Made by a program: the position numbers and the translations under genes
Notes under the pieces: generated by a model
Told to the model about the DNA's origin: nothing
The model's input: only the letters and a program-made list of their open reading frames with translations
Databases searched by the model: none
IMG/VR virus record: IMGVR_UViG_2516143071_000006
Source: a virus
Lineage: Duplodnaviria > Heunggongvirae > Uroviricota > Caudoviricetes
Length of the DNA stretch: 62,764 bases
Strand: one strand, 5' to 3'
Shown: piece after piece, positions 1 through 46,833 of the stretch
Layout of the letters: each line of letters opens with the position of its first letter
How positions within the stretch are numbered: the first letter of the stretch is position 1

Positions 1-2397
1 ATGAAGGCTGAAATCAGCCGTAGAAGTCTGATGAAAACCTCCGCACTTGGCAGTCTTGCGCTGGCAAGCAGTGCTTTCACTCTGCCATTTTCTCAAATGG
101 TCCGGGCGGCAGAGGCTCCGGTAGAAGAGAAAGCGGTCTGGAGTTCCTGCACCGTTAACTGCGGGAGCCGCTGTCTGTTACGTTTGCATGTGAAAGATGA
201 CACCGTGTACTGGGTGGAGTCTGATACGACAGGTGACGACGTCTACGGTAATCATCAGGTTCGCGCGTGTTTACGCGGGCGCTCTATCCGCCGACGGATG
301 AATCATCCTGATAGGTTGAAATATCCCATGAAGCGCGTCGGCAAGCGCGGTGAAGGTAAATTTGAACGGATAAGTTGGGACGAAGCCCTGGATACCATCA
401 GTGATAATCTTCGGCGGATCCTAAAAGATTACGGCAATGAGGCTGTACATGTCCTGTACGGAACAGGCGTAGATGGCGGAAACATCACCAACTCAAACGT
501 CCCGTACCGTCTGATGAACTCTTGCGGTGGTTTTCTCAGTCGCTATGGCAGCTACAGTACCGCACAGATCAGTGCCGCAATGAGTTATATGTTCGGTGCC
601 AATGATGGCAACAGCCCGGATGATATCGCCAATACGAAACTGGTCGTTATGTTCGGAAATAACCCGGCAGAAACGCGGATGAGCGGCGGTGGTGTCACTT
701 ACTACGTCGAGCAAGCCCGCGAACGTTCAAACGCACGCATGATCGTCATCGATCCACGTTATAACGACACAGCTGCCGGGCGTGAAGATGAATGGCTGCC
801 CATTCGCCCAGGCACCGATGGCGCACTGGCCTGTGCGATTGCCTGGGTACTGATTACTGAAAACATGGTCGATCAGCCATTTCTCGACAAATATTGTGTT
901 GGTTACGATGAAAAAACTCTGCCCGCCAACGCACCACGTAACGCGCATTATAAAGCCTATATTCTGGGCGAAGGGCCTGACGGCATAGCTAAAACGCCGG
1001 AATGGGCAGCAAAAATCACCAGCATCCCGGCAGAAAAAATTATCCAGTTGGCACGAGAGATCGGTTCAGCAAAACCTGCTTATATTTGTCAGGGTTGGGG
1101 GCCACAACGACATTCCAACGGCGAGCAAACGTCCCGCGCTATTGCCATGCTTTCCGTTCTCACCGGTAACGTCGGCATAAACGGCGGCAACTCAGGTGTA
1201 CGCGAAGGTAGCTGGGATCTGGGGGTAGAATGGTTCCCGATGCTTGAGAACCCTGTTAAAACGCAGATTTCCGTCTTTACATGGACAGATGCCATCGACC
1301 ATGGTAAGGAAATGACCGCGACCCGTGATGGTGTTCGTGGAAAAGAAAAACTGGATGTCCCCATCAAGTTTTTATGGTGCTACGCCAGTAACACATTGAT
1401 CAATCAACATGGCGACATCAATCACACCCATGAGGTGCTTCAGGATGACAGCAAGTGCGAGATGATTGTTGGCATTGACCACTTCATGACGGCCTCGGCT
1501 AAGTATTGCGATATCCTGTTGCCCGACCTGATGCCAACAGAGCAAGAAGACCTTATCTCTCATGAATCTGCAGGGAATATGGGCTATGTGATCCTCGCCC
1601 AACCCGCAACCTCTGCAAAATTTGAACGCAAACCCATCTACTGGATGCTGAGTGAAGTCGCCAAACGCTTAGGACCAGACGTTTATCAAACCTTTACTGA
1701 AGGTCGCAGTCAGCATGAATGGATCAAATATCTCCATGCGAAAACGAAGGAACGTAACCCTGAGATGCCCGACTACGAGGAGATGAAAACGACCGGGATC
1801 TTTAAGAAAAAATGCCCGGAAGAACACTACGTCGCTTTCCGCGCATTCCGTGAAGATCCCCAGGCAAACCCGTTGAAAACACCTTCGGGGAAAATCGAAA
1901 TTTATTCTGAACGACTGGCGAAGATTGCGGATACCTGGGAATTGAAAAAAGATGAAATTATTCATCCCCTTCCAGCTTATACGCCAGGTTTTGATGGCTG
2001 GGACGATCCCCTGCGGAAAACCTATCCACTGCAGTTAACGGGCTTCCACTACAAGGCGCGTACCCACTCCAGCTACGGCAATATTGATGTGTTACAGCAG
2101 GCCTGCCCACAAGAGGTGTGGATCAACCCCATTGATGCTCAGGCTCGCGGTATCCGTCATGGCGATACCGTGCGGGTATTTAACAATAATGGAGAAATGC
2201 TGATTGCCGCAAAAGTGACTCCGCGTATTCTGCCTGGCGTTACCGCCATCGGGCAAGGTGCGTGGCTTAAAGCGGATATGTTTGGTGACCGGGTCGATCA
2301 CGGCGGCAGTATCAATATTCTGACCTCTCACCGCCCTTCACCGCTGGCAAAGGGAAACCCGTCGCACAGCAATCTTGTCCAGATCGAAAAGGTTTAA
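1..2397 (+). CDS. ynfF: DMSO-reductase-family molybdopterin oxidoreductase catalytic subunit (YnfF-like); N-terminus probably continues upstream of the window
   Basis: 798-aa ORF with twin-arginine signal (SRRSLMK), N-terminal Cys cluster (CTVNCGSRC) and molybdopterin-type domains; immediately followed by a ynfG start. Confidence 0.9.
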   Translation: MKAEISRRSLMKTSALGSLALASSAFTLPFSQMVRAAEAPVEEKAVWSSCTVNCGSRCLLRLHVKDDTVYWVESDTTGDDVYGNHQVRACLRGRSIRRRMNHPDRLKYPMKRVGKRGEGKFERISWDEALDTISDNLRRILKDYGNEAVHVLYGTGVDGGNITNSNVPYRLMNSCGGFLSRYGSYSTAQISAAMSYMFGANDGNSPDDIANTKLVVMFGNNPAETRMSGGGVTYYVEQARERSNARMIVIDPRYNDTAAGREDEWLPIRPGTDGALACAIAWVLITENMVDQPFLDKYCVGYDEKTLPANAPRNAHYKAYILGEGPDGIAKTPEWAAKITSIPAEKIIQLAREIGSAKPAYICQGWGPQRHSNGEQTSRAIAMLSVLTGNVGINGGNSGVREGSWDLGVEWFPMLENPVKTQISVFTWTDAIDHGKEMTATRDGVRGKEKLDVPIKFLWCYASNTLINQHGDINHTHEVLQDDSKCEMIVGIDHFMTASAKYCDILLPDLMPTEQEDLISHESAGNMGYVILAQPATSAKFERKPIYWMLSEVAKRLGPDVYQTFTEGRSQHEWIKYLHAKTKERNPEMPDYEEMKTTGIFKKKCPEEHYVAFRAFREDPQANPLKTPSGKIEIYSERLAKIADTWELKKDEIIHPLPAYTPGFDGWDDPLRKTYPLQLTGFHYKARTHSSYGNIDVLQQACPQEVWINPIDAQARGIRHGDTVRVFNNNGEMLIAAKVTPRILPGVTAIGQGAWLKADMFGDRVDHGGSINILTSHRPSPLAKGNPSHSNLVQIEKV

Positions 2398-17432: not shown

Positions 17433-17459
17433 AACAAAAAACCCTGCCGGGGCAGGGTC
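17433..17459 (-). terminator. Intrinsic terminator candidate
   Basis: Minus-strand hairpin accctgccccggcagggt followed by a U-run. Confidence 0.45.
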
Positions 17460-17508: not shown

Positions 17509-17910
17509 TCAGACCGCTATCCTGAACACCATGAAGCCATCCTCATCATCCGGCATTCGCTCAAAGCCCAGACGTTTTCCCAGCCGGATAAATCCCCGCC
17601 TTGCCGTGTGGAATTCAGCCCAGCGTCCGCCAGCCAGACGGGTTAATGTCTTCACCTCCGGCAGATAACGCTCAACACCGGCACTCCCCGTACACACACC
17701 CAGCAACACCAGAACATAAGGGATACCGTCGTCACTGAGCACAGAACGCAGCACCAGAAAACCATCCGGTGCCTCAAAGCAAAACGCCTGCTTTTTAAGG
17801 CAGGCGTCTTTAACTTCATTCATAAATTCAGGGTTGCGGGAATTTCTCACAACACGCTGCATATACCGGAGAATTTTGTCGTCCATTCTCTCACCAGAAA
17901 CGAGTGCCAT
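17509..17910 (-). CDS. Hypothetical protein (moron-like, between two terminators)
   Basis: 133-aa ORF. Confidence 0.45.
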   Translation of the reverse strand: MALVSGERMDDKILRYMQRVVRNSRNPEFMNEVKDACLKKQAFCFEAPDGFLVLRSVLSDDGIPYVLVLLGVCTGSAGVERYLPEVKTLTRLAGGRWAEFHTARRGFIRLGKRLGFERMPDDEDGFMVFRIAV

Positions 17911-17966
17911 ATCGGCTGAACCTCAGCAACCAGTTGACGGGAACTTTCGTCCCCGTCGCGGTTTTC

Positions 17967-18107
17967 CTACTGCTTACACTGTAAGAACGCCGCAAACTCC
18001 GCCCCCCACAAATTCAGCCGGAGCTCACACAGCGAACCGTGTAACATCCAGATGGTGAAGATTACCGTCATACAAATTGTGACGGTGATGAGCGATTTTT
18101 GCGACAT
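17967..18107 (-). CDS. Hok/Gef-family-like small membrane toxin (46 aa), not in the ORF track
   Basis: MSQKSLITVTICMTVIFTIWMLHGSLCELRLNLWGAEFAAFLQCKQ: one TM helix then SLCEL...EFAAFL as in Hok-family proteins; AGGAGG 8 nt upstream of the ATG. Confidence 0.45.
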   Translation of the reverse strand: MSQKSLITVTICMTVIFTIWMLHGSLCELRLNLWGAEFAAFLQCKQ

Positions 18108-18291
18108 AGCGCTTGCCTCCTGAGTGGAGAGGCGCTAACCTTCTACTTGCTTAAGGTATGATGGTTAGGGCCTCGGGTTAAACAAAATGTTTGACTCGGG
18201 GCCTTTCCCCACATCAGGCCTTCAGGTTCACCTTCCAGCCATCAGCCGAAAGGCACCCGCGCATAATCTACGATTTTTGCCCTGCACGGGC

Positions 18292-18319
18292 AACAAAAAA
18301 CCCGCCATCACAGCGGGTT
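18292..18319 (-). terminator. Intrinsic terminator downstream of lom
   Basis: Minus-strand hairpin acccgctgtgatggcgggt followed by uuuuuug. Confidence 0.5.
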
Positions 18320-18341: not shown

Positions 18342-19079
18342 TCAGAATTTCAGGCCAATGCCTGCAAATAAACCATCAGTTTTCCAGTCGCCAGAGCCTG
18401 AGCTTTCATAAGTGACGTCCATAGTAACACTTTCATTGAAGTTAAATTGCGCGCCGACAGACCATGCAATAGACGTTTTTTTGGTGCTGTTACTTTCAGA
18501 AAAACTACCGGCACCATGATTAAGATTGTCGTTAATTTTCAAGTCAGTGGTGACTTTTGCAACCCCCATACCAGCCATTGCATACACACTGAGGTATTCG
18601 TTAAACCGCCACGAAGGACCGGATAGTAGACTCCAGTAATTAGCCCTGATATCAGTTCTCGCTGAAGCTGCCGGGTTTTTTACCTCTCGTGATGGAGCGG
18701 AAGGCTTAACATCAATAAATGCCTGCGCATTAGTCATGGAGCGCGCCCATGTAAAAGAGGCTATAACACCCAGTTCATCAGTTATCTCGTAACGATACCT
18801 GATGCTCATCCCCAGGGGGCTTTTGGCTGTGCCGTCATGCCCCCGGGCAATAGCATTTTCGTATTCACCTGATGAATTAAAATGGTTTACGTTTACAACA
18901 TTCCTGAACGTATCCCGGTTATAAACACCCGCGTCTCTAACAAAATCCTTCAGCCCGGGGAAGCGTATGTGTGCAAACCCGAGAGATACCGTACTATCGC
19001 CTGATGCTGCATTTACCTGTGCAGTTAAGCAACTCATCACCAGAACTGCACACGCAAAAAATTTCATGATACTTTTCAT
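18342..19079 (-). CDS. lom: Lom/Ail/OmpX-family outer-membrane beta-barrel protein
   Basis: Signal peptide (MKSIMKFFACAVLVMSCLTAQVNA), alternating beta-strand pattern, C-terminal aromatic residue. Confidence 0.8.
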   Translation of the reverse strand: MKSIMKFFACAVLVMSCLTAQVNAASGDSTVSLGFAHIRFPGLKDFVRDAGVYNRDTFRNVVNVNHFNSSGEYENAIARGHDGTAKSPLGMSIRYRYEITDELGVIASFTWARSMTNAQAFIDVKPSAPSREVKNPAASARTDIRANYWSLLSGPSWRFNEYLSVYAMAGMGVAKVTTDLKINDNLNHGAGSFSESNSTKKTSIAWSVGAQFNFNESVTMDVTYESSGSGDWKTDGLFAGIGLKF

Positions 19080-41274: not shown

Positions 41275-41304
41275 GCCCGCGTCTCCCAGCGCGGGCTTTT
41301 TTGT
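41275..41304 (+). terminator. Hairpin plus T-run in the Q-nanS gap, followed by a second hairpin at 41315..41332
   Basis: cccgcgtctcccagcgcggg then cttttttg. Confidence 0.35.
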
Positions 41305-41565
41305 CCATAAGAAAGCCCCTCCGGAGAGGGGCTGGAGAGTGGCGCTATGTGCCATTGCATGGTGCCGGGTGCCTCCCGGTGAGTTCAGCCCGGTGCCACT
41401 AAACCCGCGTCATTCTCGTTTTGATAATCAGAGATTATACCGTCACCAGTCGCCCCTCCGCTCAGGGGGATTCACCATGCAGTTTTTTCTAACAAATTCT
41501 CATCCGGGCAGACAACATTCAACTGACTTAATTGTGAGGTATGTAACATTCCCGTTGAACGGATA

Positions 41566-44465: not shown

Positions 44466-44809
44466 AATGACGCCCTCGAGTGGTTTCTAAACTATCACCA
44501 CCGTCAGGTTCCTAATCATCGGGTGGCGAGACGTACAGGGTTAGGAACTACCGGGAAACCAACCGGCGAGCTTTTCAGCTCCCCTATACGCCCCACCATA
44601 ATTCAGATGTGCGTGTGCATACGACAATAAAAAACACGCTCGCGGCGTGTCTCTGTCGCGGTTTCTATCCGGGGTTCCTAATCCCGACGCCAGATTTTGC
44701 TGGCGTGCGATGAATATAATCCCGGATACGCGACGTTGTCAAACTGATGGCATTGCAGATCCCTACGCAATGTAACACTATGTGTTATACATTAATAACG
44801 GAACAAAAA

Positions 44810-46432: not shown

Positions 46433-46588
46433 TTACTCCTCAGGTTCGTAAGCTGTGAAGACAGCAACCTCCGTCTGACCGGTTCGGATTCGTACCTCGC
46501 AGAGGTCTTTCCTCGTTACCAGTGCCGTCACTACGACGGTAATACAGATGACGATCAGGGCGACTAACATCGCCTTTTGCTGCTTCAT
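46433..46588 (-). CDS. hok: Hok-family type I toxin (HokD/RelF-like); an in-frame upstream extension to 46645 is mok-like
   Basis: MKQQKAMLVALIVICITVVVTALVTRKDLCEVRIRTGQTEVAVFTAYEPEE is near-identical to HokD/RelF as remembered. Confidence 0.8.
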   Translation of the reverse strand: MKQQKAMLVALIVICITVVVTALVTRKDLCEVRIRTGQTEVAVFTAYEPEE

Positions 46589-46833
46589 AGCCTGCTTCTC
46601 CTTGCCTTTCGGCGCGTAAGAGGCTAACCTACATGTGTCTAGCATGAAATTGGCCTCAGATTAATGTTAGGCGTCTTGCAGGACGCGTAATGTTAACTGG
46701 GGTTTTTCTCTGTCTGCCTTACGGTGGCATGCCCGAGGCAGACAGCCTCAAGCACCCGCAGCAATTCTACTTAACTCTCGCTTTACCGCAAACCGTTTTT
46801 ACCCGATATGGGAATTCCCATATCGTAATGAAT

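What the first reader, a model, noticed from the sequence alone, without database searches (positions are those of the whole stretch)
17967..18107. Second, unannotated Hok-like toxin gene inside the late region next to lom
A 46-aa ORF below the ORF-track cutoff encodes one TM helix followed by SLCELRLNLWGAEFAAFL, the Hok/Gef signature, with AGGAGG 8 nt upstream of its ATG. It sits with a 133-aa ORF between two intrinsic terminators, which is moron-like architecture.
Basis: partly seen in the sequence, partly recalled or inferred. Interest (0 to 1): 0.5.

Follow-up and report, generated by a model that had tools for sequence, protein, structure and literature searches.

The report
Second hok/sok toxin cassette, already catalogued
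The 46-codon gene next to lom in this Shiga-toxin phage is a real second Hok membrane-toxin gene with its own predicted antisense-RNA antidote, but public annotation and a recent Hok survey already list it, so it is a correct but mostly ordinary find.

Summary
Window 18107..17967 (- strand) encodes a 46-aa peptide that passes Pfam HOK_GEF (35.2 bits, cut-off 22) and PHROG 251 (E 8e-24). AGGAGG lies 8 nt upstream of the ATG, and intrinsic terminators sit on both sides.

The window is the Stx2a prophage of E. coli O104:H4 (100% identity). RefSeq already calls this gene "Hok/Gef family protein". The exact peptide is sequence #1593, whose near neighbours belong to cluster 72, in a 2025-26 Hok survey. 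A variant differing by one residue was cloned for that survey's toxicity test, and no cluster-72 member is among the three non-toxic ones.

The locus is a complete hok/sok-type cassette. It has its own promoter and a predicted ~62-nt antisense Sok RNA whose promoter hexamers match those I infer for sokW. It also has a 5'-3' tac/fbi fold-back helix supported by covariation in 21 loci. The peptide is under purifying selection (dN/dS about 0.2).

It departs from the R1 paradigm in three ways: no mok leader ORF in the subfamily, no terminator directly after fbi in Stx phages, and a sub-threshold Rfam match.

The neighbouring "133-aa" ORF is probably 125 aa, has a predicted GNAT fold, and contains a strikingly invariant 31-nt hairpin.

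The parts
18299..18319 (-). Intrinsic terminator after lom; upstream boundary of the cassette
   Evidence: 9-bp stem plus T tract; dG -15.5 kcal/mol.
18265..18293 (-). Predicted hok2 promoter: TTGCCC (18293..18288), 17 nt, TAGATT (18270..18265)
   Evidence: Read. The -10 aligns with TAGAAT, TATAAT and TAGGAT upstream of hokW, hokC and hokB (A1). TTGCC(C/G)-17-TAGATT is conserved in the P2-like phage copies. The consensus scan did not flag it.
18242..18258 (-). hok2 mRNA 5' end and tac element (GGGUGCC, then UU, then UCGGCUGA)
   Evidence: GCGGGTGC is invariant in hok2, hokW, hokC and hokB. It pairs with fbi in RNAalifold, in the single-sequence fold and in the pair counts.
18113..18141 (+). 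Predicted sok2 promoter: TTGCCT (18113..18118), 17 nt, TAACCT (18136..18141)
   Evidence: It aligns hexamer for hexamer with the sequence upstream of the annotated sokC and sokB starts of K-12, and with an identical TTGCCT-17-TAACCT at the hokW/sokW locus of this window. The -10 complement AGGTTA is near-invariant in 21 loci.
18148..18209 (+). Predicted Sok2 antisense RNA (~62 nt): single-stranded 5' tail, 18-bp hairpin, UUUCC tail
   Evidence: dG -30.1, z -5.5, same shape as the annotated SokC and SokB; compensatory changes at two stem pairs, and G.U pairs in 19-21 of 21 loci that would be mismatches on the sense strand.
18109..18135 (-). Anti-SD/SD hairpin GCGCCUCUCC...AGGAGG...GCGC enclosing the hok2 Shine-Dalgarno (18121..18116)
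   Evidence: SD mean unpaired probability 0.18. GCGCCTCTCC is near-invariant in 21 loci.
17967..18107 (-). hok2 coding sequence, 46 aa
   Evidence: C27 and C44 invariant; dN/dS about 0.2. The exact peptide is #1593 in the Hok catalogue.
17936..17957 (-). Stem-loop just after the stop codon (GACGGGGAC GAAA GUUCCCGUC)
   Evidence: 9-bp helix with compensatory changes at 5 pairs. An equivalent hairpin is present in hokW, hokC and hokB.
17902..17919 (-). fbi element (UCAGCCGA, then UAU, then GGCACUC), the 3' partner of tac; contains the ATG (17910) of the annotated 133-aa ORF
   Evidence: 97% of cells paired against 27-45% when slid; 40 double-change cells against 0-7. One search gives 7+8 bp in this window. 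One G.U pair arises from GGCACCC becoming GGCACTC.
17509..17886 (-). Downstream ORF, probably 125 aa (annotated as 133 aa from 17910), with a predicted GNAT acetyltransferase fold; not part of the hok cassette
   Evidence: the PHROG 610 profile starts at residue 9; most homologues outside E. coli are 121-125 aa; pLDDT 83; the hits are overwhelmingly GNAT acetyltransferases, best E 1.8e-4, TM about 0.45-0.65.
17776..17806 (-). 31-nt terminator-like hairpin inside the GNAT-like ORF, invariant at nucleotide level across genera
   Evidence: dG -19.4; 11 of 11 third codon positions invariant against 10 of 111 elsewhere, P about 3e-12.
17440..17459 (-). Intrinsic terminator after the GNAT-like ORF
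   Evidence: dG -14.6.

Best explanation
This is an intact hok/sok-type type I toxin-antitoxin cassette of about 390 bp (18293..17902, - strand). It was inserted as a moron between lom and a resident late-region gene of the Stx2a prophage. The steps below are inferred from anatomy and from the R1 and hokW paradigms unless marked as shown.

1. A sigma-70-type promoter (TTGCCC-17-TAGATT) makes an mRNA that starts near 18258.
2. The mRNA is closed by a long-range helix between its 5' tac element and the 3' fbi element. The helix itself is shown computationally by covariation. The hok2 Shine-Dalgarno sits in a local anti-SD hairpin and the AUG is paired with downstream codons, so the transcript is translationally silent.
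3. A ~62-nt Sok2 RNA is made from the opposite strand (TTGCCT-17-TAACCT). Its single-stranded 5' tail pairs with the leader about 40-100 nt upstream of the AUG, and the duplex is destroyed, presumably by RNase III.
4. When the Sok2 supply falls (prophage loss, transcription shut-off, or induction, as reported for sokW), the stable mRNA is activated. The 46-aa Hok2 then inserts into the inner membrane and collapses the membrane potential. Toxicity on overexpression is reported for the peptide differing by one residue.
5. Unlike R1 hok, there is no mok leader ORF, so translation must start directly at hok2's own AGGAGG.

The biological role is probably prophage retention and/or help with lysis after induction.
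For: Family membership of the peptide: Pfam 35.2 bits, PHROG 251 E 8e-24, 33% identity to HokW, and a 34-sequence alignment with invariant C27 and C44. Purifying selection: median dN/dS 0.23.

Leader homology: aligns with hokW, hokC and hokB, including the invariant GCGGGTGC 5' end. Sub-threshold Rfam sok hit covering the full model, E 3.6e-6 in a 1-kb search.

Sok2: the promoter aligns hexamer for hexamer with the sequence upstream of the annotated sokB and sokC starts and with the hokW/sokW locus of this window. The fold has the same shape as SokB and SokC, z -5.5. The hairpin has compensatory changes and antisense-specific G.U pairs.

tac/fbi helix: predicted by RNAalifold on 21 loci and by the single-sequence fold. 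Pair counts give 97% paired against 27-45% when slid, and 40 double changes against 0-7.

Mobility: the same cassette, bounded by promoter and fbi, occurs in P2-like phages next to ogr and at other prophage ends in Salmonella, E. albertii and Citrobacter.

Literature: the exact peptide is #1593 in the survey's files. Cluster-72 members 72_1589 and 72_1621 were cloned for the toxicity assay and are not among the 3 non-toxic constructs of 45 (bioRxiv 10.1101/2025.08.07.668861). hokW/sokW function is described in PMC8621323.
Against: No transcript, RNA-end or toxicity data exist for this exact copy. Toxicity of the cluster-72 constructs is deduced from the survey's list of non-toxic exceptions, because the figure itself is not held.

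The Sok2 -10 matches only 3 of 6 consensus positions, and the promoter scan flagged neither promoter. The Rfam match is below the gathering score (35.6 against 59).

The mok start codon that R1 hok needs for translation (PMC9841398) is absent. No substitute ORF reaches the SD.

My folds show the SD masked both with and without fbi, so the activation step is not explained.

In Stx phages there is no terminator just after fbi, so canonical 3' trimming would have to pass about 100-460 nt of extra RNA.

The compensatory changes in tac/fbi may trace to only one or two evolutionary events (two clades).
Confidence: 0.82

Rival explanations
1. Decayed relic. The cassette is a hok/sok descendant that is no longer translated, because it has lost mok and (in Stx phages) its terminator. 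It is carried passively.
For: There is no mok-like ORF, and R1 hok needs mok translation. fbi carries a C-to-T change in this window. Real decay is seen in relatives: the EH2011 phage copy has an 8-nt deletion that truncates hok to 24 codons, and Sal_L017 has lost the tac 5' end. Many chromosomal hok loci are known to be degenerate (PMC2887945).
Against: The mok-less state is shared by all 21 loci at up to about 40% peptide divergence. Across those loci the 46-aa frame, C27/C44, the SD, both promoters and tac/fbi all stay intact, with dN/dS about 0.2. The fbi change keeps pairing as G.U. A strong SD at optimal spacing is conserved.
Confidence: 0.1
2. Late-expressed lysis helper rather than an addiction module. 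Hok2 is made mainly from the Q-antiterminated late transcript that reads through lom, and it acts like an auxiliary holin to speed host lysis, as reported for HokW.
For: hok2 is co-directional with the late operon, which runs on the - strand from about 44 kb to 6 kb, and lies just downstream of lom. For hokW/sokW of Sp5, mitomycin C lowers sokW, raises HokW, and halves phage release when the locus is deleted (PMC8621323). Sp5 also carries hok2 at 91% identity, so it could account for residual effects.
Against: The same cassette sits in unrelated positions in P2-like and other prophages, and as tandem copies in chromosomes. This argues for a self-contained selfish or stabilising module. There are no expression data. 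In a read-through transcript tac is internal, and its effect on folding is unknown.
Confidence: 0.3
3. Chance small hydrophobic ORF with no relation to Hok.
For: Short ORFs abound: 59 ORFs of at least 25 aa overlap the 4.5 kb around it.
Against: Significant profile matches, conserved homologues, and a homologous regulatory leader and antisense gene.
Confidence: 0.01

Closest known systems
Hok survey of Escalera-Maurer et al. (bioRxiv 10.1101/2025.08.07.668861): cluster-72 peptides
   Same: The exact 46-aa peptide is sequence #1593 in the survey's Files S1 and S3. Its closest neighbours there are cluster-72 members. 72_1589 (L29F, the Sp5 variant) and 72_1621 (the P2-like phage variant) were cloned for the arabinose toxicity assay and are not among the three non-toxic constructs.
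   Different: I did not see a cluster label attached to #1593 itself. The survey deals with peptides only and explicitly did not analyse mok, Sok or mRNA structure. It does not describe the position next to lom, or the junction with the GNAT-like gene.
hokW/sokW of Stx2 phage Sp5/933W (present in this window at 46433..46757)
   Same: A type I hok/sok locus in the same phage. Both loci carry an identical TTGCCT-17-TAACCT at the position of the sok promoter, and they share the invariant mRNA 5' end GCGGGTGC and the same overall layout.
   Different: Only 33% peptide identity; 51 aa against 46 aa. hokW has a mok ORF and its own terminator and reaches the Rfam gathering score (110 bits against 35.6). 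The Sok RNAs look orthogonal: cognate 5'-tail duplex about -42 to -45 kcal/mol against -15 to -19 for the non-cognate pairs. hokW lies upstream of the late region and hok2 lies inside it.
hok/sok (parB) of plasmid R1, the paradigm
   Same: A small single-helix membrane toxin with the L-C-E motif; an antisense RNA encoded 5' of the ORF; tac/fbi 5'-3' fold-back; a masked SD.
   Different: No mok leader ORF, although R1 hok needs mok translation. 46 aa against 52 aa. In Stx phages there is no terminator after fbi. The setting is a prophage late region rather than a plasmid.
Chromosomal hokB/sokB and hokC/sokC of E. coli K-12
   Same: The leader and the sok promoter and hairpin align position by position.
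   Different: Both have annotated mok genes. In hok2 the equivalent ATG is ATA, followed by an in-frame TAA.

Membership tests
Hok/Gef toxin family (Pfam PF01848) | Profile match above the curated cut-off | tested here: met
   35.2 bits against a cut-off of 22, E 9.1e-9, covering profile positions 6-42 of 42. PHROG 251 E 8.1e-24.
Hok/Gef toxin family (Pfam PF01848) | About 50 aa, an N-terminal transmembrane helix, then a polar tail with the conserved L-C-E motif | tested here: met
   Hydrophobic L6-L22, then S25-L26-C27-E28. C27 is invariant and L26/E28 are at least 90% conserved in 34 homologues. These correspond to L30, C31 and E32 of the survey's logo.
Hok/Gef toxin family (Pfam PF01848) | Toxic to E. 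coli when expressed | not testable with these tools
   Literature only. The one-residue variant 72_1589 and 72_1621 were cloned for the toxicity assay and are not among the 3 non-toxic constructs of 45.
[quoted passage not shown] | cis-encoded antisense Sok RNA with its own promoter, lying 5' of the hok ORF | tested here: met
   Prediction only. The promoter aligns with the sequence upstream of the annotated sokB and sokC starts and with the hokW/sokW locus. The fold matches SokB and SokC. Covariation and antisense-specific G.U pairs are seen in 21 loci. No transcript data.
[quoted passage not shown] | tac/fbi long-range pairing of the mRNA 5' and 3' ends | tested here: met
   11 pairs, 97% of cells paired, and 4 pairs with 9-12 compensatory double changes each.
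[quoted passage not shown] | mok leader ORF that overlaps hok and is needed for hok translation | tested here: not met
   The mok ATG of hokW, hokC and hokB is ATA here. No ORF with any near-cognate start reaches the SD in 9 of 21 loci, and none is conserved.
[quoted passage not shown] | Transcription terminator shortly after fbi, so that 3' trimming can remove fbi | tested here: not met
   In this window the first terminator-like hairpin is about 100 nt downstream, inside the next ORF (17806..17776), and the next is at 17459..17440. The feature is met in Salmonella, E. albertii and Citrobacter copies, where a terminator follows fbi within a few tens of nt.
Rfam RF01794 (sok / hok leader model) | Covariance-model score at or above the gathering score of 59 bits | tested here: not met
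   No hit at the gathering threshold. 35.6 bits over the full model 1-157, E 3.6e-6 in a 1-kb search.
GNAT acetyltransferase superfamily (for the neighbouring ORF only) | GNAT fold and an acetyl-CoA binding motif | tested here: inconclusive
   No Pfam hit and no PDB sequence hit. The AlphaFold model has pLDDT 83. The Foldseek PDB hits are overwhelmingly GNAT acetyltransferases, but at modest scores (best E 1.8e-4, TM about 0.45-0.65). Cofactor-binding residues were not examined.

The most novel reading that the evidence does not exclude
The 46-aa Hok group around cluster 72 is a naturally mok-independent branch of hok/sok, in which translation starts directly at hok's own strong SD. In Stx phages the cassette has also lost its terminator, so its fbi element abuts (and, in the annotated frame, contains the start codon of) a resident GNAT-like late gene. 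The toxin mRNA would then be a longer, possibly bicistronic transcript whose 3' maturation and activation differ from the R1 model.
Probability: 0.4. Interest if true: 0.4.

Novelty: already known. Interest (0 to 1): 0.22.

Why it matters
Stx2 phages of major outbreak strains (O104:H4, and O157:H7 Sakai Sp5) carry two hok/sok loci that look orthogonal, not one. The only functional study (hokW/sokW, PMC8621323) deleted one of them, so hok2 may mask or add to the reported effect on lysis and phage release. The subfamily also offers a natural test of whether hok can be regulated without mok. The gene itself is neither new nor surprising: E. coli O157 Sakai was already known to carry 14 Hok/Gef genes (PMC2887945).

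Tried and rejected
- Rfam at gathering thresholds found only the hokW/sokW locus, not this one.
- The sigma-70 consensus scan flagged neither the hok2 nor the sok2 promoter. Both were placed by homology instead.
- The genome-contig scan gave only 7 loci. Three of them are in non-enteric assemblies (Xanthomonas, Planococcaceae, Vagococcus) and are probably contamination.
- I looked for any mok substitute, using all near-cognate starts in all frames. None is conserved.
- I folded the full-length and fbi-less mRNA to find an activation switch. The SD stayed masked in both, so this was uninformative.
- Literature searches for transcript or TSS evidence at this locus, and for papers linking hok to lom or 933W, found nothing specific.
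- The T1TAdb paper has no supplementary files held as text, so I could not check whether the database lists this locus.
- For the 133-aa ORF, Pfam and a PDB sequence search gave nothing. Only the fold search was informative.

Full report
**Observation**

On the - strand, ATG 18107 opens a 46-codon ORF that ends at 17967. It encodes MSQKSLITVTICMTVIFTIWMLHGSLCELRLNLWGAEFAAFLQCKQ. AGGAGG is at 18121..18116, exactly 8 nt before the ATG. Terminator-like hairpins on the - strand lie at 18319..18299 (after the 245-aa Ail/Lom gene 19079..18342) and at 17459..17440 (after the ORF 17910..17509). A third lies inside that ORF.

**Is it a Hok?**

Yes.
- Pfam HOK_GEF scores 35.2 bits (cut-off 22, E 9.1e-9), covering nearly the whole profile.
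- PHROG 251 'MokW-like host killing' gives E 8.1e-24.
- A protein search returns 60 relatives, mostly 46 aa. Those with a source name are called 'Hok/Gef family protein'. They come from E. coli, Shigella and Salmonella.
- In a 34-sequence alignment, C27 and C44 are invariant and G24-S25-L26-C27-E28 is at least 90% conserved, while the membrane helix varies but stays hydrophobic.
- Median pairwise dN/dS is 0.23, so the peptide is under purifying selection.
- Identity to HokW, encoded in the same window, is 33%.

**Where the window comes from, and whether the gene is unannotated**

The region is 100% identical to the Stx2a prophage of E. coli O104:H4 outbreak genomes. It is 91-98% identical to many Stx phages, including VT2-Sakai/Sp5. 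In all, 1523 of 5426 complete E. coli genomes have a match to the 946-bp query.

RefSeq annotates the ORF as 'Hok/Gef family protein' WP_000078908.1. NC_049917 calls it 'MokW-like host killing'. Older or unannotated records, such as NC_000902, skip it.

A 2025-26 preprint that catalogues 1264 Hok peptides lists this exact sequence as #1593. Its closest neighbours in those files are cluster-72 members. The authors cloned 72_1589 (L29F, the Sp5 variant) and 72_1621 for toxicity tests. They report 42 of 45 constructs toxic, and the three exceptions are in other clusters. Toxicity of the cluster-72 constructs is therefore deduced from that list, since the figure itself is not held. Fozo et al. already counted 14 Hok/Gef genes in O157 Sakai. 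The gene is therefore already known. What the literature I could search does not cover is its regulatory anatomy.

**Anatomy of the cassette**

*Leader.* Aligned with hokW (this window) and with K-12 hokC and hokB, the leader is clearly homologous. It shares the invariant 5' GCGGGTGC, an AAGGCCCC box and an AGGCAAG box. The Rfam sok model, which models this leader strand, matches end to end at 35.6 bits. That is E 3.6e-6 in a 1-kb search but below the gathering score of 59.

*hok2 promoter.* A promoter TTGCCC-17-TAGATT (18293..18265) sits where hokW, hokC and hokB have TAGAAT, TATAAT and TAGGAT. It is conserved in distant copies.

*Sok2.* On the + strand, TTGCCT (18113) - 17 nt - TAACCT (18141) aligns hexamer for hexamer with the sequence upstream of the annotated sokB and sokC starts. 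It is identical to the hexamers at the equivalent position of the hokW/sokW locus. The predicted RNA (~18148..18209) folds into a single-stranded 5' tail plus an 18-bp hairpin and a U-rich tail. Its dG is -30.1 and z is -5.5, and it has the same shape as SokB and SokC. Across 21 loci the hairpin base keeps pairing through compensatory changes (GC to AU in 4 loci, CG to UA in 1). It also contains G.U pairs in 19-21 of 21 loci that would be C.A mismatches on the sense strand, so the constraint is on the antisense RNA.

*Orthogonality.* Sok2 and SokW look orthogonal. The cognate 5'-tail duplexes are about -42 to -45 kcal/mol, against -15 to -19 for the non-cognate pairs.

**mRNA fold**

RNAalifold on 21 loci predicts the hallmark 5'-3' fold-back. 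GGGUGCC (18258..18252) pairs with GGCACYC (17908..17902), extended by four pairs that switch coordinately between clades. Counting that helix gives:
- 97% of cells paired, against 27-45% when the partner is slid by 1-3 columns;
- 40 double-change cells, against 0-7;
- no shuffle reaching the observed covariation score.

The changes may reflect few evolutionary events. In this window the helix is 7+8 bp, with one G.U pair because fbi reads GGCACTC. The SD lies in a conserved anti-SD hairpin (GCGCCUCUCC/AGGAGG), and the AUG pairs with the AEFAAF codons.

**Departures from the paradigm**

1. *No mok.* The ATG that starts mokW, mokC and mokB is ATA here, followed by an in-frame TAA. In 9 of 21 loci, no ORF with any near-cognate start reaches the SD, and the sporadic ones elsewhere are not conserved. 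R1 hok needs mok translation up to the hok SD (PMC9841398). This subfamily must therefore initiate directly at its own SD. The Hok survey's Table S2 lists GGAGG as the SD of 72_1589.
2. *No terminator after fbi in Stx phages.* In Salmonella, E. albertii and Citrobacter copies, fbi is followed within a few tens of nt by a strong terminator. In Stx phages, homology to those copies stops at fbi and the sequence runs straight into the next ORF.
3. *Sub-threshold Rfam score.*

**The neighbouring ORF**

The annotated 133-aa frame starts at an ATG that lies inside the fbi helix. That ATG is created by a single A-to-T difference from the P2-like copies (GATAAGG against GATATGG). The PHROG 610 profile begins at residue 9, and most homologues outside E. 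coli are 121-125 aa. The real start is therefore probably ATG 17886, giving 125 aa.

The protein has no Pfam or PDB sequence match. An AlphaFold model (pLDDT 83, pTM 0.72) does match solved structures, and the hits are overwhelmingly GNAT acetyltransferases. They include Naa50, Naa10 and the toxins TacT, AtaT and GmvT, at modest scores (best E 1.8e-4, TM about 0.45-0.65).

Synteny shows this is a resident gene of this podovirus late region. Yersinia, Brenneria and Pectobacterium prophages have it after the tail genes with no hok. A Salmonella relative has a different, canonical hok at the same spot: 50 aa, with mok and its own terminator. hok cassettes have thus been inserted there independently. 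This fits the 'moron' idea, but the moron is the hok cassette alone.

**Distribution of the cassette**

The same promoter-to-fbi unit occurs in several settings:
- next to ogr in P2-like phages;
- at other prophage ends;
- near chromosomal genes;
- as tandem pairs.

Decayed copies exist: an 8-nt deletion in phage EH2011, and loss of tac in one Salmonella copy.

**Mechanism**

The best-supported mechanism is a standard type I toxin-antitoxin with antisense control and mRNA end-pairing, but with mok-independent initiation.
- Shown here computationally: family membership, the conserved antisense gene, the tac/fbi helix, the absence of mok, and purifying selection.
- Taken from the literature: toxicity of the near-identical peptide.
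- Inferred: the promoters' activity, RNase III decay of the duplex, the activation step, and the biological role (prophage retention and/or lysis help, as for hokW; PMC8621323).

hok2 is co-directional with the late operon, so Q-antiterminated read-through could also express it.

**Side finding**

Inside the GNAT-like ORF, CGCCTGCC(T/G)TAAAAAGCAGGCGTTTTGCTTT (17806..17776) is invariant in five genera, apart from the one T/G position shown.
- All 11 third codon positions are fixed, against 10 of 111 elsewhere (P about 3e-12).
- It forms an 11-bp hairpin followed by a U tract (dG -19.4).
- A viral-contig scan listed 40 stretches with an exact match. All lie at the same place in homologues of this gene, some only about 45% identical in protein.

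**Verdict**

It is a genuine and probably active second hok/sok cassette, but it is already annotated and catalogued. The residual novelty is regulatory: the missing mok and the junction with the next gene.

Noticed in passing
window 17776..17806 (- strand; also flagged on + at 17784..17807): A 31-nt terminator-like hairpin plus U tract lies inside the GNAT-like ORF. It is invariant at nucleotide level in E. coli, Salmonella, Yersinia, Brenneria and Pectobacterium copies: 11 of 11 third codon positions are fixed against 10 of 111 elsewhere (P about 3e-12). A viral-contig scan listed 40 stretches with an exact match, all at the same place in homologues of this gene. It may be an intragenic attenuator, insulator or bidirectional terminator.
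   Followed up: partly
window 17509..17886 (- strand): The ORF annotated as a 133-aa hypothetical protein is probably 125 aa and has a predicted GNAT acetyltransferase fold (pLDDT 83). The Foldseek hits are overwhelmingly GNATs, including the tRNA-acetylating toxins TacT, AtaT and GmvT. It has no Pfam match. It is a conserved late-region gene of 933W-like prophages in several genera.
   Followed up: partly
L033 1560..1990 (Salmonella prophage): A different, canonical hok cassette (50 aa, with a mok ATG, fbi and its own terminator) sits at the same position, just upstream of the GNAT-like gene. This spot appears to be a repeated insertion site for hok modules.
   Followed up: partly
L009 ~1668..1810 (Stx2a phage Stx2_EH2011): This phage's copy of hok2 has an 8-nt deletion after codon 5, which truncates the ORF to 24 codons. 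It is a naturally inactivated copy, while the leader and fbi remain intact.
   Followed up: no
L025 1501..2139; L030 510..1429: hok2-type cassettes occur as tandem pairs about 500-770 bp apart in Salmonella and E. coli chromosomes. In Salmonella they lie next to a YafO-toxin gene.
   Followed up: no
L010, L011, L013 (assemblies labelled Xanthomonas pisi, Planococcaceae MAG, Vagococcus sp.): Contigs carrying enterobacterial prophage-type hok2 cassettes (76-98% peptide identity) appear in non-enteric genome assemblies. Contamination of those assemblies is the most likely cause.
   Followed up: no
window 41303..41508, 44519..44706, 46583..46757 (- strand): Rfam finds STnc100, C4 antisense RNA, isrK and the sok (hokW leader) element clustered between about 41 and 47 kb on the - strand. 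None of them was followed up here.
   Followed up: no
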